Below, in pieces: positions 440 to 64,000 of a DNA stretch of 64,000 nucleotides. Within the stretch, counting starts at the first letter, position 1. Each line of letters begins with the position of its first letter. Position numbers and translations under genes: made by a program. Source of the DNA: Malacoraja senta (Eukaryota). The DNA lies in assembly GCA_038087875.1 (NCBI GenBank), contig CM075988.1:4402001-4466000 (forward strand). The letters run 5' to 3'. Under the pieces are notes generated by a model. That model had not been told where the DNA came from. It searched no databases and saw only the letters and a program-made list of their open reading frames with translations.

Positions 440-2090
440 TTGGTGAGTCTGACCACCAATGCTGAGCAGATGAAGAAGGAGGTGAGCAGACTCCGGCGAG
501 GCCAAGGTGCAGGTCCCGATGGTGTCACTCTAGGGTGCTCAAGGCATGTGTTTAGGAAGGAACTGCAGATGCTGGAAAATCGAAGGTAGACAAAAGTGCT
601 GGAGAAACTCAGCGGGTGCAGCAGCATCTATGGAGCGAGAAGGGTTTCGGCCCGAAAGGTTGCCTTTTTCATAATAGGCAATGTTTCGGGCCGAAACCCT
701 TCTTCAGACTGCTTAAAATTTATAGTGGATGTCGGTCAGAAGTCTGTCACCTGCGATGGAGATAGTGAGGTCAAGAAATGGTAGGGAAATGTCGGAAATG
801 GTGCAGGTGTATTTTGAGTGCCGGATGGAAGTTAGTGGTGAAGCGGATGAAGTCAGTCAGTTGTGTGTGGGTGCAGGAGGTGGCACCAAAGGAATCGTCG
901 GTGTAGCGGAGGTAGAGGTCGGGAATAGGGCCCTGGCATGCCTCGAACAAGGTTTGTTTGACATACCCGACAAAGAGGCAGGCGTAGCTGGGGCCCATGC
1001 ATGTGCCCATAGCTACGCCTTGTATTTGGTGGAAATGGGAGGAGTCAAACGAGAAGTTATTGAGGGTAAGGACCAACTCCGCTAGGCAGAGGAGAGTATC
1101 AGTGAACGGGTATAGGTTGATTCTCTGGTCAAGGAAGAACCGGAGGGCATGGAGACCATCCTGGTGGGGGATGGAGGTGTAGAGTGACTGGACGTCCATG
1201 GTGAAGATGAGCGGATGGGGGCCTAGAGAATGGAATGCCTGGAGACAACGGAGAGTGTCTGAGGTGTCTTGAACATAGGTAGGGAGGGATTTAACCAGGG
1301 GGGATAGGATGGAGTCAAGGTATGTGGAAATAAGTTACCAGGACACTCTGAACAAGGGTTTCGGCCTGAAACGTTGCCTATTTCCTTCACTCCATAGATG
1401 CTGCTGCACCCACTGAGTTTCTCCAGCACTTTTATCTGCTCAAGGCATGTGCCAGCCAGTTGTGCGGAGTACTCCAACATACCTTCAACCTGAGCCTGAG
1501 CCTGGAGAAGGTTCCCGTGATGTGGAAGACATCCTGCCTGGTTCCTGTACCAAAGAGGACGCGTCCCAGCTCCTCCAATGACTACAGACCGGTGGCGCTG
1601 ACTTCACACATCATGAAGTCCCTGGAGAGGCTGGTGCTCACTTACCTGGTGACCCCTGGTTAAACCCTACCTGGACCCCCTGCAGTTCGCTCACCAAGCA
1701 AAGTTGGAGGTTGAGGACGCCATCACCCACCTGCTCCATCATTCCTATGCTCACCGGGATAAGCCGGGAAGCATTGTGAGAATCATGTTTTTTGACTTCC
1801 ACAGTGCTTTTAACACCATCCGGCCTGCACTGCTAGGGAGCAAACTGACGAAGATGCGGGTGGATACTCCACTGGTGTCTTGGATCACCAACTACCTGAC
1901 TGGACGACCACAATATGTCAGGCAACAGAACTGTGTCTCGGACATGGTGGTGAGCAACACAGGGGCCCCACAGGGATGGTCCTTTCTCCATTCCTGTTCA
2001 CCATCTACTCCTTGGACTTCAGATATAACTCGAGCTCCTGCCACCTGCAGAAGTTTTCAGATGACTCTGCAATTGTGGGTTGCATCACCG
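440..2090 (+). mobile_element. Rex1/Babar-clade LINE RT fragment (degenerate), split by a Penelope insertion at 551-1436
   Basis: Peptides [56 protein letters not shown] across frameshifts; host sequence resumes after duplicated tgctcaaggcatgtg. Confidence 0.85.
551..1436 (-). mobile_element. Penelope-like element fragment (RT motifs A-C) bounded by inverted pLTR pieces, 15-bp TSD
   Basis: ORF 771-1199(-) MDVQSLYTSIP..QIQGVAMGT..RYTDD, near-identical to 15498-16856; TSD tgctcaaggcatgtg at 536-550 and 1437-1451. Confidence 0.9.
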
Positions 2091-2139
2091 AACATACTCT
2101 TCTTCCAATGTATCCTGCTGCAGTCTTTAGACTCTACTT

Positions 2140-2415
2140 TGCTTCAGAGATGCAGAGCGGAAACATACCCTTCGGCCCACCCCTCCAGTAACACTCTCCT
2201 ACACACACTGGGACAATTCGCAGAAGCCAATTACCCGACAAAACCTGCACGTCTTTGGAATGGGGAAAGAAACTGGAGCACGCGGAGAAAACCCACACAG
2301 TCACAGGGAGAACGTACAAAATCCAAACAAACAGCACCCGTAGTCAGGATCGAGCCTGGGTCTCTGGTGTTGTAAAGTGGCAACTCTAGCACTGCGCCAC
2401 CGTTGCCGCCCTGTG
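2140..2415 (-). mobile_element. tRNA-derived V-SINE (HE1-like)
   Basis: Minus strand ggtggcgcagtgctagagttgcc...gctcgatcctgactacgggtgctg (Pol III A/B boxes); body shared with many copies in the window. Confidence 0.8.
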
Positions 2416-3642
2416 GGCCTCGCACGGTTTTTGACTATACTTTCTCCGAGGCTCCAACACTATATTCTGCACTCAATTAATTCTATTTTTTAGACTCCCT
2501 GTTGTGTTCGTGCATGTAAATCATGAACAGTATGGCTTGCCTAAGGTTTGATGAAGGGCCCCGACCCAAAACGTCACCTATCCATTTTCTCCAGAGCTGC
2601 TGCTGGAGCACGAGGTACTTTAATGTTTGTGTCCATAAGTGGCAGGAGCAGCATTAGGCCATTCAGCCCATCTAGTCTACTCCGCCATTCAATCATGGCT
2701 GATCTATCTCTCCCTCCTAACCCCATTCTCCTGCATTCTCCCCATAACCCGTGACACCCGTACTAATCAAGAATCTATCTATCTCCGCCCTTTAAAATAT
2801 CCATTGACTTGGCCTCCACAGCCTTCTGTGGCAAAGAATTCCACAGATTCACCACCCTCTGACTCAAGAAACCCCTCCTCATCTCCTTCCTAATAGAACA
2901 TCCTTTAATTCTGAGGCTATGGCCTCGACATCTAAAGTTTTTCACTGCAGCTCGGAGCACGTGGCAAAAATAAACCAATACTAATGTCAATACACTGCCT
3001 CTTACTTTAACTTGCTCCTTTTTTCTATCTGCATCAAAAATGGTCATCTCAGCCTAACATTAGTTAGGCCCTTTTGCTTTTCATTTCCTACTTTGAGCTC
3101 TAAACTGCAGGGCATATTCCACAGCCTGACATAGAACAGCACAGGAATATCTGAAGAAGGGTCTCAACCTGTAACGTCACCCATTCCTTCTCTCCAGAGA
3201 TGCAGCCTGTCCCGCTGATTTACTCCAGCATTATGTGTCTATCACAAGGAAGGAATAGGCCCTTCAGCCCATAATGTCTGTGCCGAACATGATGTCAAGA
3301 TACTGTACACTAATCTCATCTGCCTGCACCACTGCCCAGTTCATCATCAGCTCTGACCTCCCCACCATTGAAGGGATCTATCGCAGTCGCTGCCTCAAAA
3401 AGGCTGCCAACATCAGCAAGGACCCACCCCATCCTGGCCACACACTCATCTCTCCATTGCCATCGGGAAGAAGGTACAGGAGCCTGACATCTGTAACATT
3501 CAGGTTCAGGAACAGCTACTTCCCCACAGCCATCAGGCTATTAAACACAACATCATGAAGCTCTGAACAATAACAATCTATTATTATTATTGCACTTTAT
3601 CTGTTTATTTATTGTATACATTTGGTCTATGGTCTATAGACA

Positions 3643-8689: not shown

Positions 8690-8980
8690 GGTTTAGTTTA
8701 GAGATACAGGCCCTTCGGCCCACTGAGTCCACGCCGACGTGCGATCCCCGCACACTAACGCTATCCTACACACACTAGGGACAATTTAGAATTTACATGG
8801 AGTCAATTAACCTACTAACCCGCACATCTTTGGAGTGTGGGAGGAAACTGGAGCAGCCGGCGAAAACCCACGTGGGTCACGGGGAGAACGTACAAACTCC
8901 ATGTAGACAGCATGCGTAGTCAGGATTGAACCTGGGTCCCTGGCTCTATAAGGCAGCAACTCTACCGCTGCGCCACCATG
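8690..8980 (-). mobile_element. V-SINE (HE1-like)
   Basis: A/B boxes on minus strand and (ctaaa)n tail. Confidence 0.8.
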
Positions 8981-12970: not shown

Positions 12971-13293
12971 ATCCAATTCTCTCTCACATGGAAGATAGAC
13001 ACAAAATGCCAGAGTAACTCAGCGGGACAGGCAGCATCTCTGGAGAGAAAGAATAGATGACATTCTGGTTTGAGACCCTTCTTCAGACTGAGTGTCTCCA
13101 TCGACTGATGTACACGAGGAGTGAGTTACAAAAAAAACACAATTAAACAGCCGCACAACTATTCTTGGAGATGCGGGAGGAAACAAAAATATCTTGGGAA
13201 ACCCTTGCAGCCACAGAGAGAATGCACAAACCCCAGTGATAACACTGGATGTGATGAATGGGAGTGCACTGATTCAGTTAGACGGATACACAC

Positions 13294-15391: not shown

Positions 15392-15476
15392 GAATGTTTC
15401 ATCAACAATACAATTGAATGAATTGCTCAAGACTGGCACAAAAATGCAGGAGTAACTGAGTGGGACAGGCAGCATC

Positions 15477-17066
15477 CCTCACCCCCTCATCTTCACCATG
15501 GACGTCCAGTCACTGTACACCTCCATCCCCCACCAGGATGGTCTCAAAGCCCTCCGTTTTTTCCTCGACCGTAGAAGCAATCTATACCCGGCCACTGACA
15601 CCCTCCTCCGCCTAGCGGAGCTGGTACTTACACTTAATAACTTTTCATTTGACTCCTCCCATTTCCTCCAAATACAAGGCGTAGCTATGGGCACACGCAT
15701 GGGCCCCAGCTACGCCTGCCTCTTTGTCGGGTACGTAGAACAATCCTTGTTCAATGCGTACCAGGGCCCCATCCCCGACCTCTACCTCCGCTACATCGAT
15801 GATTGTTTTGATGCCACATCCTGCACCCACACACAACTGACTGACTTCATCCGCTTCACCACCAACTTCCATCCGGCACTTAAATACACCTGGACCATTT
15901 CCGACACTTCCCTACCATTCCTTGACCTCACTATCTCCATCGCAGGTGATAGACTCCTTACCGACATCCACTACAAACCTACCGACTCCCATGGCTATCT
16001 GGACTACACTTCTTCCCACCCTGCTTCCTGTAAGGACTCCATCCCCCACTCCCAATTCCTCCGTCTACGCCGCATCTGCTCCCAGGATGAGGCGTTCCAC
16101 ACCAGGGCATCTGAAATGTCCTCATTCTTCAGGGAACGGGGGTTCCCCTCCTCCACCATAGATGAGGCTCGCACCAGGGTCTCTGCCATACCCCGCAACA
16201 CTGCTCTCTCTCCCCATCCCCCCACTCACAACAAAGGCAGAGTCCCCCTAGTCCTCACCTTTCACCCCACCAGCTGTCACATACAACAAGTGATCCTCCG
16301 TCAGTTTCGCCACCTCCAACGTGACCCCACCACTCGCCACATCTTCCCATCTCCCCCTATGTCTGCCTTCCGCAAAGACCGCTCCCTCCGTAACTCCCTT
16401 GTCAATTCTTCCCTTCCCTCCCATACCACCCCCTCCCCTGGTACTTTCCCTTGCAACCGCAAGAGATGCAACACTTGTCCCTTCACTTCCCCCCTCCACT
16501 CCATTCAAGGACCCAAGCAGTCGTTCCAGGTGCGACAGAGGTTCACCTGCATCTCCTCCAACCTCATCTATTGCATTCGCTGCTCTAGATGCCAGCTGAT
16601 CTACATCGGTGAGACCAAGCGGAGGCTTGGCGATCGTTTCGCCGAACACCTCCGGTCGGTCCGCAATAACCAACCTGAACTCCCGGTGGCTCAGCACTTC
16701 AACTCCCCCTCCCATTCCGTATCTGACCTCTCTGTCCTGGGTCTCCTCCATGGCCACAGCGAGCAACACCGTAAATTGGAGGAAATGCACCTCATATTCC
16801 GCTTGGGCAGTCTACATCCTGGTGGCCTGAACGTTGAATTCTCCCAATTCTGCTAGCCCTGGCTGTCCCCTCCCCTTCATCAGCCATCTGGTTGTCTCCT
16901 CCCCTCCCCCAGCCCTCGGGCTCCTCCTCCGCCTTTTCCTTTTTTCCTCTCTTCTCCCCACCCCCTATCAGTCTGAAGAAAGGTTTCGGCCCTAAACGTT
17001 ACCCATTTCCTTCGCTCCATAGATGCTGCTGCACCCGCTGAGTTTCTCCAGCATTTTTGTGTACCT
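15477..17066 (+). mobile_element. Penelope-like retroelement, 5'-truncated, with 3' pLTR
   Basis: RT+GIY-YIG ORF followed by C/T-rich UTR and hammerhead-like pLTR; 6-bp TSD agcatc at 15471-15476 and 17067-17072. Confidence 0.93.
15498..16856 (+). CDS. Penelope RT plus GIY-YIG endonuclease (N-terminally truncated), 452 aa
   Basis: MDVQSLYTSIP, QIQGVAMG, RYIDD, FLD, YKPT; CNRKRCNTC; NLIYCIRCSRCQLIYIGETKRRLGDRFAEH; terminal GLN. Confidence 0.93.
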   Translation: MDVQSLYTSIPHQDGLKALRFFLDRRSNLYPATDTLLRLAELVLTLNNFSFDSSHFLQIQGVAMGTRMGPSYACLFVGYVEQSLFNAYQGPIPDLYLRYIDDCFDATSCTHTQLTDFIRFTTNFHPALKYTWTISDTSLPFLDLTISIAGDRLLTDIHYKPTDSHGYLDYTSSHPASCKDSIPHSQFLRLRRICSQDEAFHTRASEMSSFFRERGFPSSTIDEARTRVSAIPRNTALSPHPPTHNKGRVPLVLTFHPTSCHIQQVILRQFRHLQRDPTTRHIFPSPPMSAFRKDRSLRNSLVNSSLPSHTTPSPGTFPCNRKRCNTCPFTSPLHSIQGPKQSFQVRQRFTCISSNLIYCIRCSRCQLIYIGETKRRLGDRFAEHLRSVRNNQPELPVAQHFNSPSHSVSDLSVLGLLHGHSEQHRKLEEMHLIFRLGSLHPGGLNVEFSQFC

Positions 17067-18154
17067 AGCATCTTTGGAGAGATGGACTAGGTGACGTTTC
17101 GGGTCGAGAACCTTCTGCGGACTGACTGGGCAATGACTTGCTCGGCCATTTCAGAAGGCATTTAAGGAACAATCACATTGATGGTGTCTAGAGTCACTGT
17201 ATGAGTTAGGTTGACAGATTTTCTGCCTGAACAACATTAGTGTGCCAAATGGGTTTTTATAAAGACGTTTTTTTTGTGGTCAGCATTGCTCAGATTCATT
17301 GTTTCTATCAAATTCTAGGTTATTCATTAAATTTAAATTCCCCCGCTGCCTGTTGCAAATCATTGATTTATTGTGGTGTGGGTCTGGTCCAATCAATATA
17401 TTCAAGAAAAATAGCTTTATTGTGCAATTTAAAAAAAACACAAAAAAAATCAGTTTATGATCACATCCTAGGGCTCTTCCTAGCAACAGCAAATGTAAGA
17501 GCCCTCGACACCACTCAGCCACCAGTGGAGTTTGAAGGCAAAGTCTTCTCAATCAGTCCAGCAAATAAACAATTGTCGAGGGAAAACAAACAGTTCTCTC
17601 ACGTCCCTTCTGCTCTTTCAACTCCCTGGTGAAACCTAATGAAAATGCATCTGCTCTGTTTGTGGTCTTTGGCACCACTCACAACTCCGGTTCAAAGAGG
17701 TTCTCTCCATCTACAGCACAATCTCCATCTTTTACACACACACACGTCGAACAATCTCCTTCAGAGACTTTAGAGATGCAGAGCGGAAGCAGGCCCTTTG
17801 GCCCAACAAGTCCGTGCTGACCAGCGATCACCCCGTACACAAGCAATATCCTACACACTAGGGACAATTTACAAATTTTACCAAAGCCAATTAACCTACA
17901 AAACCCTGTATGTATTTGGAGTGTGGGAGGAAACTGACACTAATTTCCTGTTACATGACAAATCACTATAACAACCAGTTTAGTGCATTCATGACGCATT
18001 ATCGCACAAGAGTTCTTTCCAAAATTCGCCGCATATGTCCCCAAGTTTGAATACACTAAATGAAATGTATAATATTGCATTTCTAACAGATTACGTTCTT
18101 TCAAATCAGACTAAATTGCCACGGTAGGATGTGAACTGAAACCTCAAAATTGTT

Positions 18155-24275: not shown

Positions 24276-25168
24276 CCCCTTTTTACCCCCTTCCTGGGGA
24301 ACCATAGCGGTCTGGGAGCCGCTGACCGCACTGTCATCAACTCGGGTGGCGAGACCGACTTACTATTGGCTTTACCCTCCTTTCTGAGGAACCACAGCGG
24401 TCTGGGAGCCACTGACCCCATTGTCAGCGACTTAGGTAGCGAACCCGACGGAAGCCGGCTGCACGCGCTTCCGCGGGCCGGACCGGGATCTCCCCACGGT
24501 CCATAACCGGTTTCCCCGTGGCCCGTCCGGACTTCGCCCCGAAATTGAATCCAGCAGGCAAACTCTGTAACAGAGCTTCCTGCAAGACAAAAAACAGAAC
24601 CTGGAAATAAGTTTTAAAACTTACCTGCAGGTTTAAACTTACCGCTGGAAGGAGCGTCGCGCCTGCCAGTCAGTTGTTGCGCAATGCGTTAGACGTAAAT
24701 GACGCGCATGCGGGCTGACGGCCTTCTTCACGTAGTCACTCACGTGACTCCGAAGTAAAATAGATCAGCCATCATTGAATGGTGGAGTATACTTGATGGG
24801 CCAAATGGCCTAATTCTGCTCCAATCACATGAACATGAACTTCAGGTCGATGAAGAAATAGACACTCCGATTTTCATCCTGGCACGGATGAGGAGTTAGA
24901 GTTTTTCAATTAACTAATTGGACCAAGGTAGTCAAGAATCAAGATTGTTTTATTGTCATATAACCCGAAATGAAACAATTAAATTCTTGCTTGCAGTAGC
25001 ATTACAGCAGACTCAGTAAACACAGTAACTCAATAGATAAAACAACACACAAACAAGCCATCAAAGCCAACAGTGCAGTCAAGCTGAAAGAGGTTTCAGT
25101 CAAAGATAGACAAAAATGCTGCAGAAACTCAGCGGGTGAGGCAGGATCTATGGAGCGAAGGACTAGGT

Positions 25169-25196
25169 GACGTTTCGGGTCGAGACCCTTCTTCAG
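25169..25196 (-). ncRNA. Minimal type I hammerhead ribozyme core in a Penelope pLTR-derived short element
   Basis: Minus strand CTGAAGA-A-GGGT(CTCG)ACCC-GAAA-CG-TC. Confidence 0.65.
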
Positions 25197-26984
25197 AGGT
25201 TTCAGTCAAGATCAGCACCAGCAGTGAATTTCCATGAACATATAATGAACATACATGTAAGTATAGAAACATAGAAAATAGGTGCAGGAGGAGGCCATTT
25301 GGCCCTTCGAGCCAATACGATCATGGCTGATCATCTAGAATCAGTACCCCATTCCTGCGTTTTCCCCACATCCCTTGATTCAAGAGTCAAGTCAAGAATC
25401 AAGAGCGTTTGCCCCAAGAGTTATACCTAACTCTCTCTTGAAATCATCCAGTGAATTGGCCTCCACTGCCTGCTGTGGAAAAGAATTCCCACAGATTCGC
25501 AACTCTCTGGGTGAAAACATTTTTCCTCATCTCAGTCGAAACAGCCTACCCCTTATTTTTAAACTGTGACCTCTGGTTCTGGACTCTCCCAACATCGGGG
25601 ACATTTTTCCTGCATCTAATCTGTCCAATCCCTTAAGAATTTTATATGTTTCTATAAGATCCTCTCTCATCCTTCTAAATTCCAGTGGAGTTGGCTGAGG
25701 TCTGTGATAATATGATCCGCCACCATCTCCAAACCAACGCTACTTGAGATTAACACGTAAGAGTCATAGTGATAGAATGTGGAAACAGGCCTTTAGGCCC
25801 ACACCAGCCAACATGTCCCAGCTACACTAGTCTCACCTGCCTGCTCTTGTTCCATATCCTTCCAAACCTGTCCTATCCATGTACCTGTCTAACTGTTTCT
25901 TAAACGCTGGGATAGTCCCAGCCTCAACTACCTCCTCTGGCAGCTTGTTCCATACACCCACCATTCTTTGTGTGAAAAAGTTACCCCTCAGATTCTTATT
26001 AAATCTTTTTCCCTTTACCTTGAACCTATGTCCCCTGGTCCATGATTCCCCTACTCTGGGCAAGAGACTGTGGATCTACCCGATCTATTCCTCTCATGAT
26101 TTTATACACTTGGTGCATGCAATGCGCCCTCATTACACAACAATGCAGTCGCCAAGATTCAGCATTCCTGTTTTATCCAAATTTATGAAACCCAACGCAC
26201 TAACATTTGCAGATAAACACAAAATGCTGGAGTAACTCAGCGGGACAGGCAGCATCTCTGGAGAGAAGGAATGGTTGAGGTTTCAGGTTGAGACTCATCT
26301 TCAGTCTGAGAGTCAGGGGAGAGGGAAATGAGAGATATGGAAGGGTAAGGTGTGAAAAAGGAAAATGCAGAACAGATCATTGTTAGATAGGAGGAGCTGA
26401 CAACAAGGCATACAATGTATGATACACCAACACTTGTACTTCCCTAATATAAACTGACATTCCTGGAGGTACTCAGCAGGTCAGGCACGATGTAGAAGGA
26501 AACAGAATCAATAATAATCAATCACTTTTCAACGGAATTGCAAATGTGGAAAAGAAACATGTGTTAAGTTACAGAAATGGAGAGGGGCGGAGAGAATGAA
26601 CTGCGTCACTTGTACGACCTTGATCTTTACCGTAACACCAGCCAGCAGGGGACTGAAATGTGACGGAGATCGAGATAGTTAAAATGACACAATTCCTTTC
26701 AGCGCATCCTAGAGAAACGAATGAGCTATAGTGTCACCACACTGCACAGCACAGAAACAGGCCCAACATGCTGCAGTAACTCAACGGGGCAGGCAGCATC
26801 GCTGGAGAACATGGATAGCTGACGTCTTGGGTCAGGACTCTTCTTCAGACTGATTGCAATGGGGGGTGGGGGAGAAAGCTGGAAGAGAACAGGGGCAGGA
26901 CAAAACCTGGCAGGTAATAGGTGAACACAGGTGAGGGAGCTTTTTGATAGGCGGAGAGTTGGACAAAGTTACTGGAGAGTATTC

Positions 26985-44856: not shown

Positions 44857-47743
44857 CCATTCTAGCGCATGAGCCGTGGTCGCCCTGTCACCATTGTATT
44901 TGCCTGTCGATTCGGAGGGGAAGGATGTAGATGATATATGCATGTGCCTTTAACATAGTGACCTCATACCTACTAACCACTCCCCATATCACAAGTATAA
45001 CTACAACCTCCCCACCCACAGATCGCTCTCTAGTTCCTGTGACAGACCACGTACAGCTAGTGCAATATGTAATGCTCCAGTATGAATAAAGATAGTAAAG
45101 TAACGATGCCTCGTTATAGAGTCTTTACAGTTACGTTGGTGATTACGTGCCCATCACGCCCAACCCTCTCTCATAAAAAAGGTTGTATGGTAGTTCTCAT
45201 GTTGCTCATCTTAATATGTTACTTCAATTATTGTGTTGTCTGTGATTTCATTCCGCTGCTTTGAAGATTGACGCGCATGCGCCCTGACGGTTCTTCTTCA
45301 CGTAATCACCAACGTAACTCCTCATAAAATAAAGATCAAACTTCAAACTGGTAAGTTCTCGTTTAATCTTACTATTATTGTGTGCAGTTCTGGTCAGTAC
45401 ACTGTAGAAGGAAAGTGATTGTGCTGGAGAGAGTGGAAATTTACTAGAATATCGTCTGGATTGGAGGACGATTTAAGGCGAGGGATTTGGAGGATTTGAT
45501 TTAAGGAGAGAGATTGGATAGGATTGGCTTCTTTTGGAGTCAGGGAGGCTGAGGGGTGATGTGTAAGCTTATGAGAGACAGCGAGGCAACATGCTCAGTA
45601 GAGAGCATATTGACTGGTTGCAACATGGCCTGGTTTGGCTACTTGAACGCCCGGGAACAAAGGAGACAGCAAACACTGGTGAACGTCCATCACGGTTACT
45701 GACCTCCCCACCATCGAAGGGATTTACAGGAGTCACTACCTCAAAAAGACAGCCAGCGTCATTAGAGACCCACACCACCCTGGCCATGCACTCATTTCAC
45801 TCCTGCCATCGGGAAGAAGATGCAGGAGCCTGAAAACTGTAATATCCAGGTTCAGGAACAGCTTCTTCCCAACAGCCTTTAGGCTATTAAACACCTCAAC
45901 CTCCAAATAAGCTCTGAATTACATAGACTTGGGGGCATTGGTTTTGTCTTTTTACACTATTATTGTTTATTTGATGTGTGTGTGTGTATGTATATGTGTG
46001 TGTGTATGTATCTATGTACTGAACTTCTTTTTGCTTATTATATTGTTTACCTATTCTGTTGTGCCGGTACAAGAATGTTATGGTTGTGTTTGGGACATAT
46101 AAAACACTCTTGACTCAAGAGAGGCAGCTGATCAAAATCCCTTTGCTTAGATAATGGTATTAAACATAAGAGGAGGTAGGTTTAAAATGAGAGCTATGAG
46201 ATTTAAAGGGGATGTTAAAGGGTAATTTTTTTGCAGGGGAGATGATATCTTGAATGCTCTGCCAGAGAAGGTGAGGGTATCAGATGCAATTGCTATGCAT
46301 AAGAGACATTTAGACAGACACTTGCTTGGGTGAGGCATTGAAAGATATGGATCTAATGCAGAAGAATTGGATTAATATAGATGGAATAAAAGGTCAGTAT
46401 GGACATGGAAGGGGGGTGAGGGTGAGGAAGCAGGGCGGGGGGTGTGAAGGGATGTACAACTCTATGAGTCTGTGAATGGAGTTATTCATCGAATAGTGAA
46501 AGGCTTGGATAGTGTGGATGAGGAGTGGATGTTTCCACCAATGGGAGTGTCTAAGACTTTCACCTCAGAATTAAAGGATGTCCCTTTAGGAAGATGAGGA
46601 AGAATTTCTTTAGTCAGATGATAGTGAATCTGTGGAATTCATTGCCACAGAAGGCTGCGGAGGCCAAGTCAATGGATATTTGTAAGGCAGAGATAGACAG
46701 ATTCTTGATTAGTACGGGTGTTAGGGGTCACGGGGAGAAGGCAGGAAAATGGGGATAGTGAGAGATAAATCAGCCATGATTGAATGAAGGTGCTGACTGG
46801 ATGGGTTGAATGGCCTAATTCTGCTCCGACCACTTATGACCTTATGAGTCTGATATGGTGGTGATCATTGGTTATTTCAAGTGTGTCCAAATGGCCACAA
46901 AGAGGAGTCTGCTTCCTGGCTCTCACTGTCTCTGTAGTGATTTGGGACAAGAGAGTGCATAGAACACAGAACAATATAGCCCAGGAACAGGCCCTTCAGC
47001 CCACAAGGTCCATGTCAAACATGGTGCCAAGTTAACTTAATCCCCTCTGCCTGTGTGTGCTCCATATCCATCTTTTCTCTACATTTCTATATATCGAGAA
47101 GTCTCTCAAACGCTATTCTTGAATCTGCCTCCACCACCACCCCTGTAGCACATTTTAGGCACCCACCACCCTCTGTGTAAAAAACTTGCCCCGCACATCT
47201 CCTTTAAACTTAGCCCCTCACACCTCCTGCTGTGTCCTCTGGTCTTAGATATTTCCACCCTGGGAAAAAGGTTCTGACTGTCTACCCTATCTATGCCTCT
47301 CCTAACTTTATATACTTCTATTGGGTCTCCAGAGAAAACAATCAGTTTGTCCAAACGTTCTCATGTTCTCAATGCAAGTAGTCCATGCACATGAAGATAG
47401 ACACAAAGTTCTGGAGAAATACAACGGGTCAGGCAGCATCTCTGGAGAAAAAGTATGAGTGGCGTTTCAGGTCGGAACCCATCTTCTGGCTCATTATTTT
47501 GCTTAATTCTCAAATGCTCCCTCAAAAAGTGAAATATTCTTTTAACCCCCTTTCTCTCTGCTGGAAGGTATGATATCGTGGAATTCCCTCTCTGAATATT
47601 TGAATCATTTGTGTGCATACAATCTCTAGTTACAAATGGGATTCTAATTCAGGGTTAATGCAGCAATCATAGGGCAGATATAGCAATTTTTTTTTCATGC
47701 ATCATAAAATCTCATGAATAATGGCCAGAATATAAGAAACAGT

Positions 47744-48072: not shown

Positions 48073-50049
48073 CAGAAATGTAAATAGGATTGAAAGCTCT
48101 GGGCTGCAATGAGTGTATTTATGGTAACTATATTAGGGCCTTCACTTGGTTTACTGAGCAGTAGGATGACTATGACACTATGACTCTAATAGCTTGAATA
48201 TCATTTGATTTACCTCTGGATATGCCCTTGAGATATGGTTGAACTTCAGAGAGTCTAATTGACTTTCTGATTGGTCTGAGTACAACCAATTAATCTTAGA
48301 TCACATTTTCGTTTCCAGGCACTGAAATCAATCTTGTGGATTGCCATTGTCGGAGTAAAATTATCAGAGCTTCAGGAGTCAATGCAGGAGTTCCTTGTGG
48401 TAACATTCTTGACTCGTCTATCTTCAGCTGCTCCATCAACAACGTTCTCTCTGTCATCAGGGTGAAGTAACATTCACACCAGATGATAAACCTGCACAAG
48501 AGAAAGTCCAGTCACTATTTAATGATCCCCAGTGTCCACACTGAGTCATTGCCTTCAATAGATTGGGTGTCACCACAACCAGAGAGCAGTGCTGAACCTA
48601 TCTCCCTCACTGGCGACCCTCGGACTATCCTTGATCGGACTTTGCTGGCTTTACCTTGCACTAAACGTTATTCCCTTATCATGTATCTATACACTGTAAA
48701 TGGCTCAGTTGTAATCATGTGTTGTATTTCGAGAGCATGCAACAAAAGCTTTTCACTGTACCTCGGGACAGGTGACAATAAACTAAACTGAACTGAACTG
48801 AACACCAGGGAGTTGTTGATAAAAAATAACACATCGTCACCGGGGACAGGGCAAAGTGTGACATCTATGATGGGTGGCTCATGTCCTGATCTAGCAATGT
48901 GCAGCAGTCCACCATGAATAAGACATCAAGAGTGTACTGAAATAGTAAGTTTAATTTATTGTCACGTGTACCGAGGTAGAGTGAAAAGCTTTTGTTGTGT
49001 GCTATCCAGTCAGCGGAAAGACAATCCTTGACTGTAATCGAGCCATTTATAGTGTATAGATTCATGATGAGGGAATAATGTTCAGTGAAACCCAGCACAG
49101 GATCAGTCCGATCAAGGATAGTCCGAGGGTCACCAATGAGGTAGATAGTAGTTTGGCACTGCTCTCTGGTTGTAGGAGGAGGATTTAGTTGCCTGATAAA
49201 ATAAAGCAACTTATTAAAATTAAAATAAATCGGTCAATGGTTGAGGATGGTTCTCCTTCAAGGAATAATGTTCTTTCGAGTCTGATGGTGCCAAATTTGG
49301 CTGATCTGACATTGACCACCTGCTGAAACTTGGACATGTTTGGCCAGGTGGGAAGGCTACCTGCATTATTTTCCAGTAACTATTTTGTGCAGGATGGAAC
49401 TGCAGATGCTGGTTTAAACCAAAGATAAACACAAAATGCTGGAGTATCTCAGGCACCATCTCTGGAGAGAAGGAATGGATGACGGTTTGGGTCTAGACCC
49501 TTCTTCAGACTGTTTCTATGACATGGTTTTTCCCAGTGAAGTTACTGTAATGTGAAACACATGGTTAGTCTCCATGGCAGAGTGGCTTGGTTGCTAGTGC
49601 CACTCAACTCTAGGGCAGCACGGTGGCATAGTGCTAGAGTTGCTGCCTCACAGCGCCAGTGACCCGGGTTCGATTCTGACTACAGGTGCTGTCTGTATGG
49701 AGTTGTACGTTCTCCCTGTGACCTGTGTGGGTTATCTCCAAGTGCTCCGGCTACCTCCCACATTCCAGAGTCAAGCAGGTTTGTAAGTTAATTGGTTCTG
49801 CAAAAAATGGTCTCTCGTGTGTGGGATAGAACTAGTGGGTGATCGCTGGTCGGCACGGACACGGTGGGCTGAATGGCCTGTTCTCGTGTAGGAAGGAATT
49901 GCAGATGCTGGTTTACACCGAAGATAGACACAAAATGCTGGAGTAACTCAGCGGGACAGGCAGCATCTCCTGATAGATGGAATGGGTGACGTTTGGGTCG
50001 AGACCCTTCGTTCAGACGGGTTTCAAGTCTTGGGTTTAAAATGTTCAGT

Positions 50050-50077
50050 CTGAAGAAGGGTGTCGACCCGAAACGTC
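50050..50077 (+). ncRNA. Minimal type I hammerhead ribozyme core in a pLTR-derived short element
   Basis: CTGAAGA-A-GGGT(GTCG)ACCC-GAAA-CG-TC. Confidence 0.65.
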
Positions 50078-51228
50078 ACCCATTCCTTCTCTCCAGAGAT
50101 GCTGCCTGCCCCGGCCAGTTTCCGTGCTATATCTCTACAGTCTAAAATCTAATGCCACTGAATTTTATGACCACAGTCACTGCCCCCAATATTCTTCCGT
50201 CTACCCTATGGGGTGCACACACTGAGTATGTGCTCACCCTCAATGTCCCCATTGTGCTCTGGTCCAATCTTTGTGAAACATTGCAACAAGTTGCCAAAGT
50301 TACTTCACGCTTTCAAATTATAACATTGAAAGGACAAGATCCTATCTTAAGGACTTGTTGTGAGAACATCACCACAATGTTCGCCTTCAAATCCAATCCC
50401 ACTTTCCCCTTGTTGTGTCTTTGCCATCACTAAGTAATCAATGTCTTGAATTTCCCCAGAGAAGCCAGAATAACCCTTGACACAGACAGTTAGTAGAAAG
50501 CTTGCCAGCACTCCCTGGTGTGAGTGTCTCCTGCAATCTTGCCTGACTCACTCGTATCAGGATATAATAAAGCATGCAGCTTAATGGAAGGCTTTGCCAA
50601 GCTGATAGCTTCAGGGGGCCACAGAGATCACAAATGGAAAGAATCTTAGTTTAGTTTTGAGATACAGCACGGGAACAGGCCCTTTGGCCCACCGAGTCCG
50701 TGCCGACCAGCAATCCCCGCACATTGTCACTACCCTACACACACTAGGGCAGGAAACGAAGATCTCGGAGCAAACCCACGCGGTCACGGGGAGAACGTAC
50801 AAACTCCGTACAGACAGCACCCGTGGTCGGGATCGAAGCCGGGTCTCTGGCGCTGTGAGTGCTGTAAGGCAGCAACTCTACCGCTGCGCCACCGTGCCGC
50901 CCTGTCTAGTTCTTTACTGATATATGTGACTGGCTCACCCATTCCTTCTCTCCAGAGATGCTGCCTGTCCCGCTGAGTTAGTCCAGCATTTTGTGTCTAT
51001 CTTTGGCTGAAAGGAAAGTTACTTGACTGTAGTTTCTAAATTTGCCCTGCATGAGGGAGCAGATCGAAAGTGGAGGACATCTCGATGTAGCACAGAAACT
51101 GCTGGGATCCTTGACACAGTTTACATGGCCAACTCAGCTTTCCCTGTCCTCTACATGATCCTTACTCTTTTTTCACATTACACCTAGCCATGTACACTGG
51201 CACTATCACTCAATCACATACAAAACCT

Positions 51229-56866: not shown

Positions 56867-58779
56867 CTATGGAATTCATTGCCACAGCAGGCTGTGGAGG
56901 CCAAGTCAATGGATATTTTTAAGGCAGAGATTGACAGATTCTTGATTAGTACGGGTGTCAGGGGTTATGGGGAGAAGGCATGAGAATGGGGTTAGAAGGG
57001 AGTGATAGAGCAGCCATGAATGAATGGCAGAGTAGATTTGATGGGCTGAATGGCCTAATTCTACTCCTATCACATGAAATTATGTACTTAAAGATGTCCT
57101 AGAAGGGATATTTACAACATTCTAGAACCTCATGCGACTTCAAATGCTCATTCAAATGGTAAATGCTGTAATGTGCTTAATTAATGCCCAATAAAGTCAT
57201 AGTGTCATACAGCAGAGGCACAGGCCTTTCGGCCCAACTAGTCCATGCCAACCAAGTGCCCATCTATGTGAATGAAGGAACTGCAGATGCTCGTTTACAA
57301 TGAAAATAGACACAAAAAGCTGGAGTAACTCAGCAGATCATCGGCTCTCTGTCTGAAGAATGGTTTCAATCACCTATTCCTTTACTCTAGAGATGCTGCC
57401 TGACCTGTTGAAATACTCCAGCCTTTTGTGCCCATCTATGCGAGTTCCATTTACGCATATTTGACCATATCCCGCAAAAACATTTCTGATCATGTAACTG
57501 TCCAAAACTCCTTTCAATGTAGTTATTCCACCTTCTATCTGCTTCCTCTGGCAGCTCATTCAATTCCTTCAGCTCTGACAATCTGCATAGGCAGCTTATC
57601 GTATCCCCATGTCAGGTAGCCTTGACCCATTTACAGTTGATGTGGTGGTTTGGTTTGTTCTCATGTCCCTTCTCTCATTCTGTACCACTTCAGTCGTGAA
57701 ATACTTCATTTCCAGCTGACTCACTGCCCCTGAGGGACACTGTGGCTTCTTTCACTTAGATGCTCCGTCCCTGAGTGAGTACCCATGGAGGTACGTGTGG
57801 TGAAAGTCTTTTCATGTCTTTTCTTTCAGCTATCCTGTTCCGCTCGAGGCTTCACTGTGAGTGCGGGCGTGGTACTGAATCACCAGACTATATTCAGCAG
57901 CTTTAAAGTATTCTCATATTTGAAAGAACCAAAATCAAAAAAATAAGTGTGTTTAGGGGAGAAGGCAGGAGGATAGGGGTGAGAGGGAAAGATAGATTGG
58001 CTATGATTGAATGCCGGCATAGACTTAGAGTCATAGTCATACAGCATGGAAACAGGCCCTTCGGCCCAAGTTGCCCACGCCGACCAACATGCCCCATCTA
58101 CACTGATCCCACCTGCCTGTGTTTGGCCCATATCCCTCTATCCGTTGTGATAGTCTCTGCCTCAACTACTTCCTCCAGCATCTCATTCCTTACACCCACC
58201 CCCCTTTGTGTGAAAAAGTTACCCTCAGGTTCCTATTAAATCTTTCCCCTCTCCTCAACTTAAACTTATGTCCTCTGGTTCTCGATTCCCCTACTCTGGA
58301 CAAAAGACTCTGTGCATTTACCCGATCTATTCATAGTCATGGTCATAATGGGTCGAATGGACATGATGGGCTGAATAGCCTAATTCTGCTCCTATGACAT
58401 GAATTTATGAAAATAAAAATATCAAGAAAATAGGCCAATTATCTTCCATGAACATGCTTGTTTAAGACCAGAGTTAATGTTTACACCACCTTCTCTGCAG
58501 AATAAAAAGCAAAGCGCGTTCTTTTCTGAGAATTGCAAAGTATGATATTTGTGTATTTAAATGTAGCTTTGGTTAGTGGAAACAAAGAATTGCAGATGCT
58601 GGTTAATTCGGGTCTGAAGATATGTTCCAACCCGAAACATCACGTATCCATGTTCTCTGAGGATAGACACAAAATGCTGGTGTAACTCAGAGGGGCAGGC
58701 AGCAGGAATAGGTGACATTTCGGGTGGAGACCCTTCTGCAGACTGATTCTCTGGGGATGCTGCCTGACCCGCTGAGATA

Positions 58780-59960
58780 CTGGTGGTGGGCGTCAGTCAT
58801 ATTGCCCTGCAGAGAATGTCCAGGTTCTACCGGGACCTGCTCAGAGTCTGAAACTTGGTCGCCTACGACCTGGGCCCCCCTCCGCTGGCGTTGGGCGATG
58901 GCCCGGCAGCGAGAGCGGGCAGCCGTTGTCCTTTCCCACTAGGTGTCGGGGAGGCTCGAACATGTGGAGTAATTCTGACTGAGCTGACGAGAACTCAGCC
59001 GGATGTACTCATTGGACAAAAGGTATAGAAGTGTGAAAACGCACAACGCCTGATTCAGGGGCAGTTTCTACCCAGCTGTTATCCGGCAACTGAATCATCC
59101 GACCACAACCAGAGTGCTGAGCTAAACTACTATCTACCGCATTGGTGACCCTTGGATAATCCTTGATTGGACTTTCCTGGCTTTACCTTGCACTAAATGT
59201 TATTCCCTTATCATGTATCTGTACACTGTAAATGGCTCAATTGTAATCATGTATTATCTTTCTGCTGACTGGGTAGCACGCGACAAAAAGCTTTTCACTG
59301 TACCTTGGTACACGTTACAATCAACTGAACCGAACTGAACTGACCCCGACCCCAGAATCTTTCACGGGAATCGGTTCCACACAACCTGAGCCATTTTTCC
59401 TCAACACCTCCGTGCCCTTCCGAAATGCAGGGATCTGTCTCCGGTATGGAATGTTCCCCCACTCCCTACACTTTCACCCCCTAGTCCACCGTCCGGACAC
59501 GCCATCTATTTTAATATCGGTCAGGAGAGGGGTTCCCAGTGGAGGTCCCTGCAAGCAGGGATTCTTCACATCGGGGACTTGGGGTGGAGGTACTACACCG
59601 AGCTGCCCCATGTAACAAATTCCTGAAGACAGACACAAAAACCTGGAGTAACTCAGCGGGACAGGCAGCATCTCTGGATGGAAGGAATGGGTGACGTTTC
59701 GAGAGATGCCGCCTGTCCCGCTGAGTTACTCCAGCATTTTGTGTCCACCTTCGATTTAAACCAGCATCTGCAGTTCTTTCTTACAGAGTCACCAGTTGCC
59801 TGCCACTTCTGAGGTCTGGAAAAATCTGTATACGCATATATGGTATGTGTGAGCCTACCCCTCTTCCAGGGTTATGTCCGTGCCCAGATACGTGGTGTTC
59901 ACTCACACCAAGGTGTGGTTCCGGGACCATGGGGCACCGGGGGGGGGATTGACTAAACCC
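58780..59960 (+). mobile_element. Old Tx1/L1-like ORF2 remnant interrupted by Rex1 tail and pLTR pieces
   Basis: LHFHPLVHRPDTP and IGDLGWRYY motifs resemble Tx1 ORF2 C-termini. Confidence 0.45.
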
Positions 59961-59984: not shown

Positions 59985-60998
59985 AATAATGCTCAACACT
60001 GGTGCCCCGCAAGGATGCGTTCTCACCTCCTTTCTTTACTCCTTCCACACCCACGACTGTGCCGTCGCGTACAAATTTAACTCAATTTACAAATTCGCAG
60101 ACGAAACCACCATTGTGGGCCGGATGTCAAATAATGATGAGACGGAGTACAGGAAGGAGATCGAGATCCTCGTGTCCTGGTATCAGGACAACAACCTTTC
60201 TCTCGATGTCAGCAAGACAAAGGAGATAGTGATCGACTTCAGCAAGTGAAGCGGTACACATACCCCAGTTTGCATTGACGGCGCCGAAGTAGAGACGGTT
60301 GAAAACTTCAAATACCTAAGAGTAAATATCACCAACAACTTCTCCTGGACCACCCATATTGAAGCAACGAGCAAGAAAGCACACCAATGCTTCTACTTCC
60401 TCAGAAGGCTTAGGAAGTTCGTCATGTCCCTAACAATACTCACCAACTTCTACAGATGCACCAGAGAAAGCATTTTATCAGGATGCATCACAGCTTGGTT
60501 TGGGAACAGCTCCATCCAAGACCGCAAGAAATTGCAGCGAATTGTGGACGCAGCCCAGACCATAACACAAACCAACCTCCCTTCCATTGTCTCCATTCAT
60601 ACCTCATGCTGCCTCGGCAAGGCCAGCAGCATAATCAAGGACAAGTCGCACCCCGGCCACACTCTCTTCTCCCCTCTCCCATCGAGCAAAAGGTACAGAA
60701 TTGTGAAAATTCACACATTCAGATTCAGTTTCTTCCCAGCTGTTATCAGACCACTGAACCATCCTACCACAAATAGAGAGCAGTCCTCAACTACTATCTA
60801 CCTCATTGGTGACCTTCGGACTATCTTTGATCGGACTTTACTGGCTTTATCTTGCAATAAATGTTATTCCCTTATCCTGTATCTGTGCACTGTAAATGGC
60901 TCGATTGTAATCATGTATTGTCTTTTCGCAGACTGGTTAGCATGCAACAAAAGCTTTTCACTGTACCTCAGTACATGTGACAATAAACTAAACTGAAC
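59985..60998 (+). mobile_element. Second Rex1-like LINE family, 3' part; solo tails also at about 5880-6080, 48575-48800, 48945-49195 and 59015-59340
   Basis: [42 protein letters not shown]; tgacaataaa(ctaaa/ctgaa)n tail. Confidence 0.85.
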
Positions 60999-62249
60999 TG
61001 TTGCCTCCAGTTTCAAGTAACCCCTGCATTCCCTCTCTCCCCACCCCTCCGCCACCCTCCCTGTCCTGCTAGTTCCACTGTTCACATCCATATATCCCTT
61101 TGTTATCACCTCTTCTGCAGCCACCAATGGACAAGTGTGGGCTCTGCCTTTCTTTGGTCATTGGTGCCAGCTCTGATTTGTTCTGAAACTTTTCATACCT
61201 CTAGTTTTCCTCTCTGCTGAGTTCTCATTCTGAAGAAGGGTCTTGACCCAAAATGTCACCTATTTCTTTTCGCCAAAGATGCTGTCTGACCCGCTGAGTT
61301 CCTCCAGCATTTTGTGTCCACCTCCTTTCTTAACCTCAATAGTTTAGAGTTACAGCGTGGAAACAGGCCCTTCAGCCCACCGAGTCTGTGATGACCAGCG
61401 ATCCCCGCACATTAACACTCTCCAGCACACCATGGACAATTTTACAATTGTAACAAGCCTGTACAATTACAGGGTCTACAACCCTGTACATCTTTTGGAG
61501 TGTAGGAGGAAACCGGAGCTCCCGGAGTAACCCCACACAGGTCGTGGGGAGAACATATAAACTCCATGCAGACAGCACTCGTGGTCAGGATAGAACCGGG
61601 GTTTCTGGCGCTGTAAGGCAGCAACTCTACTGCTGCGCCACTGTGCTGCCTAATTCTCGAGCTCACACCAGGATCTCAAACCACGGTGCACCCTAACCTT
61701 ACACTTTGAACTCAATTTGAACACTGTGAGCGGGTAAAATCATCTCTGACCCCTCTCACCCTGGCCACAAACCCTTTGAATCACTTCCCTCTGGAAGGCG
61801 ACTCCGGACTGTCAAAGTCACCACAGCCAGACATAAAAACAGCTTTTTTCCATGAGTTGCAGCTCTACTCAATAACCAAAAGTCTGTAGCATCATTTTGC
61901 GCTGGTGTTTTATTTCATTCACATGTTTAAACTGTAATGTTTTATTAATAATGTTTAATTGGCCCCGACCACGGGGTGTGCAAGAGGAAGAGGACTGGAC
62001 TTTGTTCCCTTCCCTCACAGTGGGAACCATTGTGGGGGGATGTTTTTATGTTTTATGTTCTTCTTTAATGTAGTGTCTCAAAGATGGCTGCCAGAAGTGA
62101 GAATGAACGCTGGCGCCATTAGCTGCCGCTGCGCTCTCTCCGAATTATGTATTGTTGCTTTTGTTTCAATTTATTTATATGTTTGTAATTTGCTTGTTTT
62201 GACTGTTAGGTATCCTTGAGTGTCCTGAAAGGCGCCCATAAATAAAATG

Positions 62250-62285: not shown

Positions 62286-63036
62286 TTTATGTGTCATTTT
62301 TAATTGTTACTGTATGTCGTGTTGTTACTTGCGAGCAGAGCACCAAGGCAAATTCCTTGTATGTGTACATACTTGGCCAATAAACATTCATTCATTCATG
62401 ACTTTAAACCTCTTCCTCACTCTATGCCATCTCACCTTGAGCTCACACTGAGACAGCACATCAAAATCTTACACTGTCATCTTTCTGACTTCAACACATT
62501 GAACATGGTCATTGGGCCTTTCACAGTACTGTACCCAAAGATGCACAGTAATTTGCTACAGGAGGGTTATGCCACTTATACTAGTTTAGGTTAGAGTTTA
62601 GTTTATAGGTACAATGCAGAAAAAGGCCCTCCACAGCACCGAGTACATGCATGATCCCCATACACTAGCATTACACCAACTATGATCCCACACACTAGCA
62701 CTACCCTGCACACCAGGGACAATTTACAATTGTTACCCAAGCCAATTAACCTACAAACTTGTACGTTTTTAGAGTGTGAGAGCAAACCGAACACCTGGGG
62801 AAAACCAATGCAATCGCATGGAGAACATACAAACACCATACAGACCGCACCCATAGTCAGGATCGAACCAGGGTCTCTGGCGCTGTAAGGCAGCAACTGT
62901 ACCACTGCGCCACTGTGCTGCCACTTATGCTAATGGGGCTTTAGGTGACCTGCATGAAAAAATTAATAGTCCATGAAAATTATTGGGCCATCAACAGAAA
63001 AGCTCTTCAATCAGTATTTTCCCGGTTTGCTTGCAG

Positions 63037-63122
63037 AAATAGTAAAAGTTAAACACTCAGAACATCTTCCCTGTGGTGTCGCAGACAAGTTCATGTTTCC
63101 AGATACTCAGCATGGAACAGAG
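63037..63122 (+). other. Candidate 86-nt exon of an unidentified gene
   Basis: ttttcccggtttgcttgcag acceptor, GAG/gtaagt donor; one open frame IVKVKHSEHLPCGVADKFMFPDTQHGTE; unique sequence. Confidence 0.4.
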
Positions 63123-63423
63123 GTAAGTTGTGCTTGCGGCCACGATTTCTGGTAACTTTGACCAAGTTATGAAGTCAGGAGAGGAAGGATTACTTTTTTT
63201 TCTCAGGAGTGGTCCCTTCACCTGGAGTGTGGGAATCTGCAGAGCTCAGTTCGACCCAAAAGGCATAGTTACTGAATATATTCCAGATAAGAGACATTGC
63301 CAGAATAAGGCCACATGCAAACTAGAGCAGTGGTTCTTAACCTGGGGGTCATGACACCCTAAGAGGGTCGTTTGGAGCTTTGCCAGGGGGTCATGAAGGG
63401 GACACAAATAACATATCAATTTG

Positions 63424-64000
63424 TTTAAGAAGGAACTGCAGATGCTGGAAAATCGAAGGTAGACAACTCCTTCTGGTAGATACTTCTTCTCACCCTCCCA
63501 TGGCTATCTGGACTACACTTCTTCCCACCCTGCTTCCTGTAAGGACTCCATCCCCTACTCCCAATTCCTCCGTCTACGCCGCATCTGCACCCAGGATGAG
63601 GTGTTCCACACCAGGGCATTCGAGATGTCCTCATTCTTCAGGGAACGGGGGTTCCCCTCTTCTACTATAGATGAGGCTCTCACCAGGGTCTCTTCTATAC
63701 AAGTTGACTCTGCTCTCACTCCCCATCCCCCCACCCACAACAAGGGCCGAGTCCCCCTTGTCCTCACCTTCCACCCTATCAGCCGTCACATACAACAAAT
63801 AATCCTCCGACATTTTCGCTACTCCAACGTGATCCCACCACTTGCCACATCTTCCCATCTCCTCCCCTGTCTGCTTTCCGCAGAGACCGCTCCCTCCGGA
63901 ACTCCCTGGTCAATTCGTCCCTTCCCACCCAAACCACCCCCTCTCCGGCCACTTTCCCTTGCAACCGCAAGAAATGCTACACTTGTCGCTTCACCTCTCC
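63424..64000 (+). mobile_element. Penelope-like fragment (RT C-terminus/linker) preceded by an inverted pLTR piece; runs off the window
   Basis: HGYLDYTSSHPASCKDSIPYSQFLRLRRIC, near-identical to about 15990-16490. Confidence 0.88.

What the first reader, a model, noticed from the sequence alone, without database searches (positions are those of the whole stretch)
551..63470. About 20 dispersed short Penelope-pLTR elements, many carrying minimal hammerhead ribozyme cores (retrozyme/SINE-like family)
Seen: a 100-170-bp unit (consensus ctgaagaagggtctcgacccgaaacgtcacc...agatgctgcc..cccgctgagttactccagcattttgtgtct..cagcatctgcagttccttc) recurs at about 552-709, 1347-1436, 2545-2600, 3148-3240, 12990-13090, 16970-17125, 25100-25197, 26215-26310, 26765-26850, 47395-47490, 49395-49510, 49890-50110, 50935-51000, 57275-57420, 58585-58780, 59625-59780, 61230-61320 and 63424-63463. 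Its 5' end has the hammerhead core CUGANGA, helix II, GAAA, UH, with an extra A before helix II and helix III reduced to the palindrome ACGU. The cleanest cores are 50050-50077(+), 25169-25196(-) and 680-707(-). Helix II stays paired across variants (GGGT/ACCC, GGGT/GCCC) while the loop varies. Established: Penelope-like elements carry minimal type I hammerheads in their pLTRs that are thought to act as dimers. Inference: most copies here have no ORF and many begin at the ribozyme, so they may form an independently amplified non-autonomous ribozyme retroposon mobilised by the local Penelope RT/GIY-YIG.
Basis: partly seen in the sequence, partly recalled or inferred. Interest (0 to 1): 0.72.

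Follow-up and report, generated by a model that had tools for sequence, protein, structure and literature searches.

The report
Penelope (Neptune) terminal-repeat fragments with hammerhead
These scattered short repeats are the tail ends of a known type of jumping gene in a shark or ray. They carry its already-described minimal self-cutting RNA motif, mostly broken; the one odd point is that most copies start exactly where that motif starts.

Summary
The repeat is real: 29 profile hits at about 19 loci, covering all 18 listed intervals. It is the 3' pseudo-LTR of a Neptune-type Penelope-like element (PLE) of a cartilaginous fish. It follows an RT/Zn-linker/GIY-YIG ORF at 16968, ends at two points about 35 nt apart (the PLE 'tail'), and forms inverted pairs with 13-15-bp target duplications. 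Its hammerhead is the published minimal PLE type; ORF relatives carry the published Acropora Neptune motif at the same place. Only 3 of 19 copies keep the core plus helix II, and private mutations hit the core at a rate not distinguishable from the rest. It is not a retrozyme: no tandem copies, and ends are not at the cleavage site. Best reading: direct products of Neptune RNA, running from a fixed 5' edge (probably the transcription start) to the internal RT start. An independently amplified PLE-SINE is not excluded (about 20%).

The parts
15456..16856 (+). 5'-truncated Neptune-type PLE ORF (RT with YIDD, CX4CX2C linker, GIY-YIG); element sequence starts near 15477
16857..16967 (+). pyrimidine-rich 3' UTR of the PLE
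   Evidence: pyrimidine fraction 0.88
16968..17066 (+). the unit as the 3' pLTR of the ORF-bearing copy (subfamily A, G12 mutated, no tail)
17067..17125 (-). partial B-type unit abutting the 3' end; an 11/12 duplication bounds the 15436-17125 block
550..1438 (.). one insertion: tailed pLTR 550-711(-) with internal inverted duplication 638-672, RT fragment 719-1334(-), inverted tail-less pLTR 1344-1438(+); perfect 15-bp TSD
25100..25197 (-). solo unit, intact core and helix II, perfect 15-bp TSD
49885..50122 (.). head-to-head pair: tailed unit 49885-50019(-) and partial unit 50045-50122(+), the latter with the most complete hammerhead (core 50050-50077)
57268..57440 (.). ORF-less inverted pair (tailed and tail-less) with 13-bp TSD
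58581..58781 (.). composite of four pieces in both orientations
59623..59785 (.). ORF-less inverted pair, both pieces 5'-truncated (start at model positions 26 and 50)
63423..64000 (.). inverted tail piece 63423-63465(-) at the 5' junction of a PLE ORF fragment 63495-64000(+)
26207..26400 (-). B-type unit with pyrimidine-rich upstream UTR remnant (upstream boundary approximate)
26758..26900 (-). older-type unit with pyrimidine-rich upstream remnant (upstream boundary approximate)
61150..61334 (+). unit with upstream UTR-like remnant; 8-bp duplication, p about 0.013 uncorrected
2547..2638 (+). old solo unit (25% diverged)
3150..3245 (+). solo unit
12990..13091 (-). solo unit
47387..47489 (-). 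solo unit
49387..49513 (-). solo unit with tail
50935..51006 (+). partial solo; the only piece starting within 2 nt of the predicted cleavage site

Best explanation
The unit is the 3' pseudo-LTR of Neptune-clade Penelope-like retrotransposons of a cartilaginous fish, in several subfamilies of different age. SHOWN: it directly follows the RT/GIY-YIG ORF and its pyrimidine-rich UTR, has two alternative 3' ends about 35 nt apart, occurs as inverted partners inside single TSD-bounded insertions, and carries the standard minimal PLE hammerhead. FROM ESTABLISHED KNOWLEDGE (Poseidon of Anolis, in vitro): the PLE protein cuts both DNA strands and starts reverse transcription at two internal sites on its RNA, which define the tail; ribozyme cleavage is not needed for insertion. 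INFERRED: short copies are made by that machinery from Neptune RNA. RT starts at the short end or the tail end and stops at a fixed edge 4-5 nt upstream of the ribozyme core. I think that edge is most likely the transcription start of the pLTR promoter, so priming in the first pLTR of a transcript yields a 'start-to-tail' mini copy (about half of my weight). The alternatives are RT fall-off at the fold/pyrimidine-tract border (about a third) or an exonuclease-protected RNP edge. Once inserted, copies decay and most ribozymes are dead passengers; they show up in RNA mainly by read-through.
For: Unit at 16968 follows the ORF end at 16856. Best named protein relatives are shark and ray proteins at 63-68%; the CX4CX2C linker fits the Neptune/Nematis motif (PMC8557442). 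28 of 46 related loci with an ORF end and at least 150 nt downstream have a minimal hammerhead there, versus 1 of 920 shuffles and 0 of 46 antisense. Their motif reads as the published Acropora digitifera Neptune motif. Spacing from C3 to the TTTTGTG end is 95 nt in 34 of 65 coral-type copies and 87-89 nt in 8 of the 12 window copies where the motif was found, of 19 tried. 3' ends: 14 of 27 pieces at model positions 91-106, 6 of 27 at 133-138; 1901 RNA reads continue into the tail at 17066. TSDs: perfect 15, 15 and 13 bp and one 11/12, among 22 boundary sets tried; null maximum score 10 in 400. Solo and UTR-bearing copies are interleaved on the tree. Private substitutions: core 8/155, non-core 104/1351, Fisher p 0.33; G12 lies in a CpG and reads A in 6 of 20. 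In polyA reads both strands are about equal over the unit (2522 vs 2202) and no start pile appears at the cleavage site. Coral-type loci show a TATAAA about 38 nt upstream of the core (seen), which would put a start just before the core.
Against: Overall identity of the non-CpG core is higher than the flank (179/195 vs 1231/1489, permutation p 0.0055), so source elements were probably selected on the core; shared variants hit 1 of 10 core versus 26 of 73 other positions (p 0.16). The commonest (B) type has no ORF-linked copy in the window. The tree has 93 columns and only 2 of 15 well-supported branches, so it cannot exclude a solo-only lineage. Copies keep the C before the A that would be +1 of a TCAGT initiator (10 of 15; consensus recalled), an imperfect fit to a start site. 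No start pile at 16968 (only read-through RNA was likely sampled). Coral-type relatives do not show the sharp edge (1 of 13), so it is not a general Neptune property in that biased sample. 18 of 22 boundary sets gave no duplication at p<0.01.
Confidence: 0.65

Rival explanations
1. An independently amplifying non-autonomous PLE-SINE: solo units hold an internal promoter plus the RT start site, are transcribed from their own loci and are re-inserted in trans by Neptune RT/EN.
For: Sharp 5' edge; a TSD-bounded 98-nt solo insertion at 25100-25197; unit depth about 10-fold or more above ORF depth in RNA reads and a step rather than a gradient in contig depth (not a copy number, and other subfamilies may add only to the unit); no ORF-linked B-type copy in the window; pLTRs can mobilise foreign sequence in trans (PMC3846280).
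Against: No solo clade (weak); B-type copies with UTR remnants exist (26309, 61225); solos occur in young and old subfamilies alike (2-32% from the subfamily majority); RNA is unstranded over the unit.
Confidence: 0.22
2. Plain random 5' truncation of 3' pLTRs; the apparent edge is a detection artefact.
For: 8 of 27 pieces start inside the unit (positions 26-93); PLEs are heavily 5'-truncated (PMC8557442); the UTR references in the window are few and divergent.
Against: Match to UTR-bearing copies drops to chance at -5/-6 in 15 copies; their upstream pyrimidine fraction is 0.28-0.60 versus 0.70-0.88 in the 4 UTR-bearing ones; 13 of 18 versus 1 of 13 in coral-type loci, p 0.0007 (different reference quality); 252 reads clip at 16967.
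Confidence: 0.08
3. Monomers of a non-LTR retrozyme that self-cleaves, circularises and reinserts.
For: A hammerhead core is present; retrozymes are proposed to derive from pLTRs and leave dispersed monomers, and were counted in one chondrichthyan genome (bioRxiv 10.64898/2026.07.22.740005).
Against: No tandem array of the unit; unit 98-137 nt versus repeats of 150-450 bp; minimal, not canonical, ribozyme (PMC7229834); only 1 of 27 pieces starts near the cleavage site; none of 5 copies folds into the hammerhead at minimum energy, and 3 core homodimers did not show the hammerhead dimer by eye; 3' ends are the PLE tail ends.
Confidence: 0.05

Closest known systems
Minimal hammerheads in pLTRs of metazoan PLEs (Cervera and De la Pena 2014, PMC4209133), esp. 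Acropora digitifera Neptune
   Same: CUGANGA + one extra nucleotide + G-C opening helix II, GAAA, palindromic 15.2-16.2, short helix I; located in the pLTR; most motifs dispersed as single copies; inverted second copy at the 5' end of truncated elements (their Fig. S4A).
   Different: No cartilaginous fish in the parts I read or searched; helix I is only 2 bp here; a sharp 5' edge of solo copies at the ribozyme start is not described in what I read.
Poseidon of Anolis carolinensis (Frangieh et al. 2024, PMC11167929)
   Same: Two 3' ends separated by a 30-40-nt tail; both-strand priming fits the inverted pairs; no RNA reads ending at the cleavage site.
   Different: Other PLE clade; there the ORF starts inside the ribozyme, which could not be checked here (no 5' end of the ORF in the window).
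Solo and inverted pLTRs of Adineta vaga Penelope (PMC3846280)
   Same: Inverted pLTRs, optional tail, TSDs, solo pLTRs, Inr-like motif in the pLTR.
   Different: Solo pLTRs there are few and ascribed to recombination or deletion; here they are the majority and one has a perfect 15-bp TSD.
Non-LTR retrozymes (PMC7229834; bioRxiv 10.64898/2026.07.22.740005)
   Same: Type I hammerhead, no ORF, proposed PLE origin.
   Different: They are tandem arrays expressed as cleaved linear and circular RNA; this family is dispersed, inverted and bounded by PLE RT start sites.

Membership tests
EN+ Penelope-like element (Neptune/Nematis type) | single ORF with RT and C-terminal GIY-YIG | tested here: met
   (RVT_1 and GIY-YIG, both below curated cut-off on the truncated ORF)
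EN+ Penelope-like element (Neptune/Nematis type) | CX2-5CxxC linker between RT and EN | tested here: met
   residues 333-341; definition
EN+ Penelope-like element (Neptune/Nematis type) | pLTR, inverted 5' copy, optional 30-40-bp tail, TSD | tested here: met
Neptune clade specifically | RT phylogeny with reference Neptune elements | not tested
   No tree with Repbase references; assigned from the linker and from relatives carrying the published Neptune hammerhead
PLE minimal hammerhead | core, extra nucleotide between 9 and 10.1, G10.1-C11.1, palindromic 15.2-16.2 | tested here: met
   core and helix II complete in 3 of 19 copies
PLE minimal hammerhead | covariation in helices I and II | tested here: inconclusive
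   two-sided changes only against the coral-type rows; not above shuffles
PLE minimal hammerhead | self-cleavage (dimer or protein-assisted) | not testable with these tools
   needs a bench assay; no read-start pile at the site in one RNA run
Non-LTR retrozyme | head-to-tail tandem units each with a ribozyme | tested here: not met
   (window only)
Non-LTR retrozyme | canonical type I hammerhead with 6-bp helix I and a helix III stem | tested here: not met
Non-LTR retrozyme | circular RNA intermediates | not testable with these tools
   only polyA reads of another organism were available
SINE-like non-autonomous family | own lineage separate from the autonomous partner | tested here: inconclusive
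   4 changes for 4 rows, 2 forced by supported branches, 93 columns
SINE-like non-autonomous family | fixed 5' end | tested here: met
SINE-like non-autonomous family | own promoter active at solo loci | not testable with these tools
   needs CAGE or a reporter assay

The most novel reading that the evidence does not exclude
In this fish lineage the roughly 100-135-nt segment from the ribozyme's first base to the RT start site has become a self-contained mini-retroposon: promoter, hammerhead and RT-start signal in one unit. It outnumbers its autonomous partner several-fold and is re-mobilised from solo copies, making it a dispersed, non-tandem Penelope 'SINE' whose fixed 5' edge maps the PLE transcription start onto the ribozyme's 5' border.
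Probability: 0.22. Interest if true: 0.58.

Novelty: new member of a known kind. Interest (0 to 1): 0.3.

Why it matters
As it stands, it extends a known ribozyme-retrotransposon link to cartilaginous fishes. My searches listed no paper on this family, but the library lacks most subscription papers and Repbase/Dfam were not searched. The useful residue is the boundary pattern: a fixed 5' edge at the ribozyme start plus two fixed 3' ends, in a family dense enough to give about 19 insertions in 64 kb. It offers a statistical handle on an open question (where PLE RNA starts and what the hammerhead does in transposition), and a test of whether Penelope elements have true SINE-like dependants.

Tried and rejected
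Rfam scan at E<=10 found no hammerhead family among 35 matches; minimal motifs fall outside those models. No genome is held for this window, so no genome-wide count. DNA patterns from the unit found 0 matches in metagenome, viral and prokaryote contigs. Two of the four laid runs (X21, X22) gave 0 reads, so there is no raw-DNA boundary histogram; X1 contig depth is not a copy number. Our own earlier findings: nothing in 3 look-ups. One search had an off-by-one column error and was redone. Rejected: ribozyme cleavage as the cause of the 5' edge (it lies about 30 nt upstream of the site; 1 of 27 pieces starts within 2 nt of the site). Rejected: a splice acceptor as the edge (pyrimidine tract plus CAG is present at 16968-16971, but copies keep the CAG and share no upstream exon). 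Rejected: the 10-bp tandem arrays at 31678 and 36838 as reiterated tail junctions; they share a decamer but sit in an unrelated element. Minimum-energy folds pair the core with the downstream pyrimidines, not as a hammerhead; this is weak evidence, since a related ribozyme needed protein.
Full report
Observation. A profile built from 15 window copies finds 29 pieces (28 at E<0.01), against 3 weak hits (E>=0.45) in six 64-kb controls. By my grouping the pieces make 19 loci: 3 with PLE ORF fragments, 3 with pyrimidine-rich UTR remnants, 4 ORF-less inverted composites and 9 solos. The end and conservation counts below use 27 pieces: the internal duplicate 638-672 and the E=0.18 piece 58581-58606 were left out.

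What it belongs to. The ORF 15456-16856 has RT and GIY-YIG matches (below curated cut-offs because it is truncated), YIDD and a CX4CX2C linker. Its best named relatives are shark and ray proteins at 63-68%, so the host is inferred to be a cartilaginous fish; no genome is held. The unit starts at 16968, after a 111-nt pyrimidine-rich UTR. Among 80 related metagenome loci, 46 have the ORF end and at least 150 nt downstream, and 28 of these carry a minimal hammerhead, mostly about 106 nt after the ORF; controls gave 1 of 920 shuffles and 0 antisense. Their motif reads as the Acropora digitifera Neptune motif printed in the supplement of PMC4209133. The paper also says most such motifs occur as single dispersed elements, probably truncated PLEs.

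PLE signatures. 3' ends fall at model positions 91-106 (14 of 27) or 133-138 (6 of 27); four end early, three of them against a neighbouring piece, and three lie at 87, 113 and 123. The difference is the 30-40-bp optional tail (PMC8557442), shown in Anolis Poseidon to lie between two internal RT start sites (PMC11167929). Coral-type loci have the same layout, with a tail in 26 of 65 copies. Perfect duplications bound 552-1437 (15 bp), 25100-25197 (15 bp) and 57268-57437 (13 bp), and 11 of 12 bases bound 15436-17125. The other 18 of 22 boundary sets did not reach p<0.01. So inverted pairs can be single insertions, and at least one solo is a direct retrotransposition product, not a deletion remnant.

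State of the ribozyme. Of 19 copies spanning the core, 5 keep all 11 core bases and 3 also keep helix II. By inspection only 50045-50122 also keeps ACGU and the 2-bp helix I. The non-CpG core is more uniform than the flank (0.918 vs 0.827, permutation p 0.0055). Once variants shared by three or more copies are set aside, private mutations are 8/155 in the core and 104/1351 elsewhere (p 0.33), and shared variants hit 1/10 versus 26/73 positions (p 0.16). This fits selection in source elements and neutral decay afterwards, with little power. Covariation is not above shuffles. Minimum-energy folds do not give the hammerhead.

The 5' edge. Nineteen of 27 pieces reach model positions 2-7; four continue into a pyrimidine-rich UTR and 15 do not. 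In those 15, agreement with UTR-bearing copies is significant at -1 to -4 (13, 11, 9 and 10 of 15) and at chance from -5 on. In polyA reads of another organism (X23), depth is about 1900-4700 on the unit, 21-44 on the UTR and 74-468 on the ORF. There, 252 reads clip before 16967 with mixed flanks (agreement 0.45), both strands are equal over the unit, and no start pile appears at the cleavage site or at the edge. UTR divergence in that organism could add to the depth step. Coral-type non-ORF copies truncate at scattered points (4 to 110 nt upstream; 1 of 13 within 12 nt, versus 13 of 18 here, p 0.0007), but 12 of those 13 lie opposite to the ORF strand in loci chosen for an ORF, a biased sample. 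The edge is about 30 nt upstream of the cleavage site, so self-cleavage cannot make it.

Mechanism. Shown: pLTR identity, two 3' ends, TSDs, inverted pairs, fixed 5' edge, decayed cores. Inferred: Neptune protein primes at the short or tail end and copies up to an RNA edge at the ribozyme's first bases. A transcription start is my first choice. D. virilis Penelope has an internal promoter (PMC2377424), Adineta pLTRs have TATA plus an Inr-like motif (PMC3846280), coral-type loci show TATAAA about 38 nt before the core, and TCAGT resembles an initiator (consensus recalled). The 550-711 copy is joined at exactly this edge to an internal ORF position, as a template jump from an RNA 5' end would give (one case). 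Against it: copies keep one base more than a canonical +1 predicts. RT fall-off at the pyrimidine tract also explains the contrast with the coral-type family, whose UTR is not C-rich.

Independent family? On a tree of the 18 pieces with at least 70 aligned bases, the four UTR-bearing rows need four changes (two forced by supported branches), so solos are not one clade, but most forks are open. An independent PLE-SINE stays possible at about 0.2. Retrozyme membership fails on tandem arrangement and ribozyme type (PMC7229834).

What I read. PMC4209133: parts 1-2 of 4 of the text and parts 1-2 of 3 of supplementary file 2. bioRxiv 10.64898/2026.07.22.740005: parts 1-3 of 5, no supplements. PMC11167929: parts 1-2 of 4. 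PMC8557442, PMC2377424, PMC3846280 and PMC7229834: matched passages only. Eight searches, seen as listings, showed no paper on this family; repeat databases were not available.

Verdict. Real and correctly recognised, but a new member of a known kind. Interest 0.3, resting on the sharp 5' edge.

Noticed in passing
window 28019-33184 and 33179-38344: A 5.16-kb direct tandem duplication at 99.9% identity: very recent or an assembly artefact.
   Followed up: no
window 42050-44872 (+): 940-aa frame with aspartyl protease and RT matches and an overlapping integrase frame: an LTR retroelement.
   Followed up: no
window 40643-40996 (+); 30518-30812 and 35678-35972 (-): Tyrosine-recombinase N-terminal domain match and weak RT-like matches; possibly DIRS-type fragments (label recalled).
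   Followed up: no
window 1653-2375, 11329-12762, 26951-27535, 60250-60996: LINE-type RT fragments, two with PF09004.
   Followed up: no
e.g. window 2315-2411, 8891-8981, 49613-49704, 50798-50902, 61556-61650: An abundant SINE with at least 16 matches; ARAGORN calls tRNA-like heads at 8912 and 24200. Several pLTR units sit in or beside its 3' part (3150, 49886, 57268).
   Followed up: partly
tailed copy window 49886-50020 (-): An 8-nt segment at model positions 55-62 is complementary to the middle of the tail and pairs in the predicted fold; it may shape the choice between the two RT start sites.
   Followed up: partly
window 719 and 63495: Two independent ORF fragments break within 10 nt of the same ORF position (15977 and 15986 equivalents), an AC-rich stretch.
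   Followed up: no
window 3650-5221: 665-bp inverted arms at 90% around a GA-rich core, with 32-bp tandem repeats.
   Followed up: no
window 19668-22607 and 51230-54190: A 3-kb dispersed repeat at 82% with no ORF scanned or assigned.
   Followed up: no
window 31678-31756 and 36838-36916: 10-bp tandem arrays that share a decamer with the short-end/tail junction but lie in an unrelated element.
   Followed up: yes
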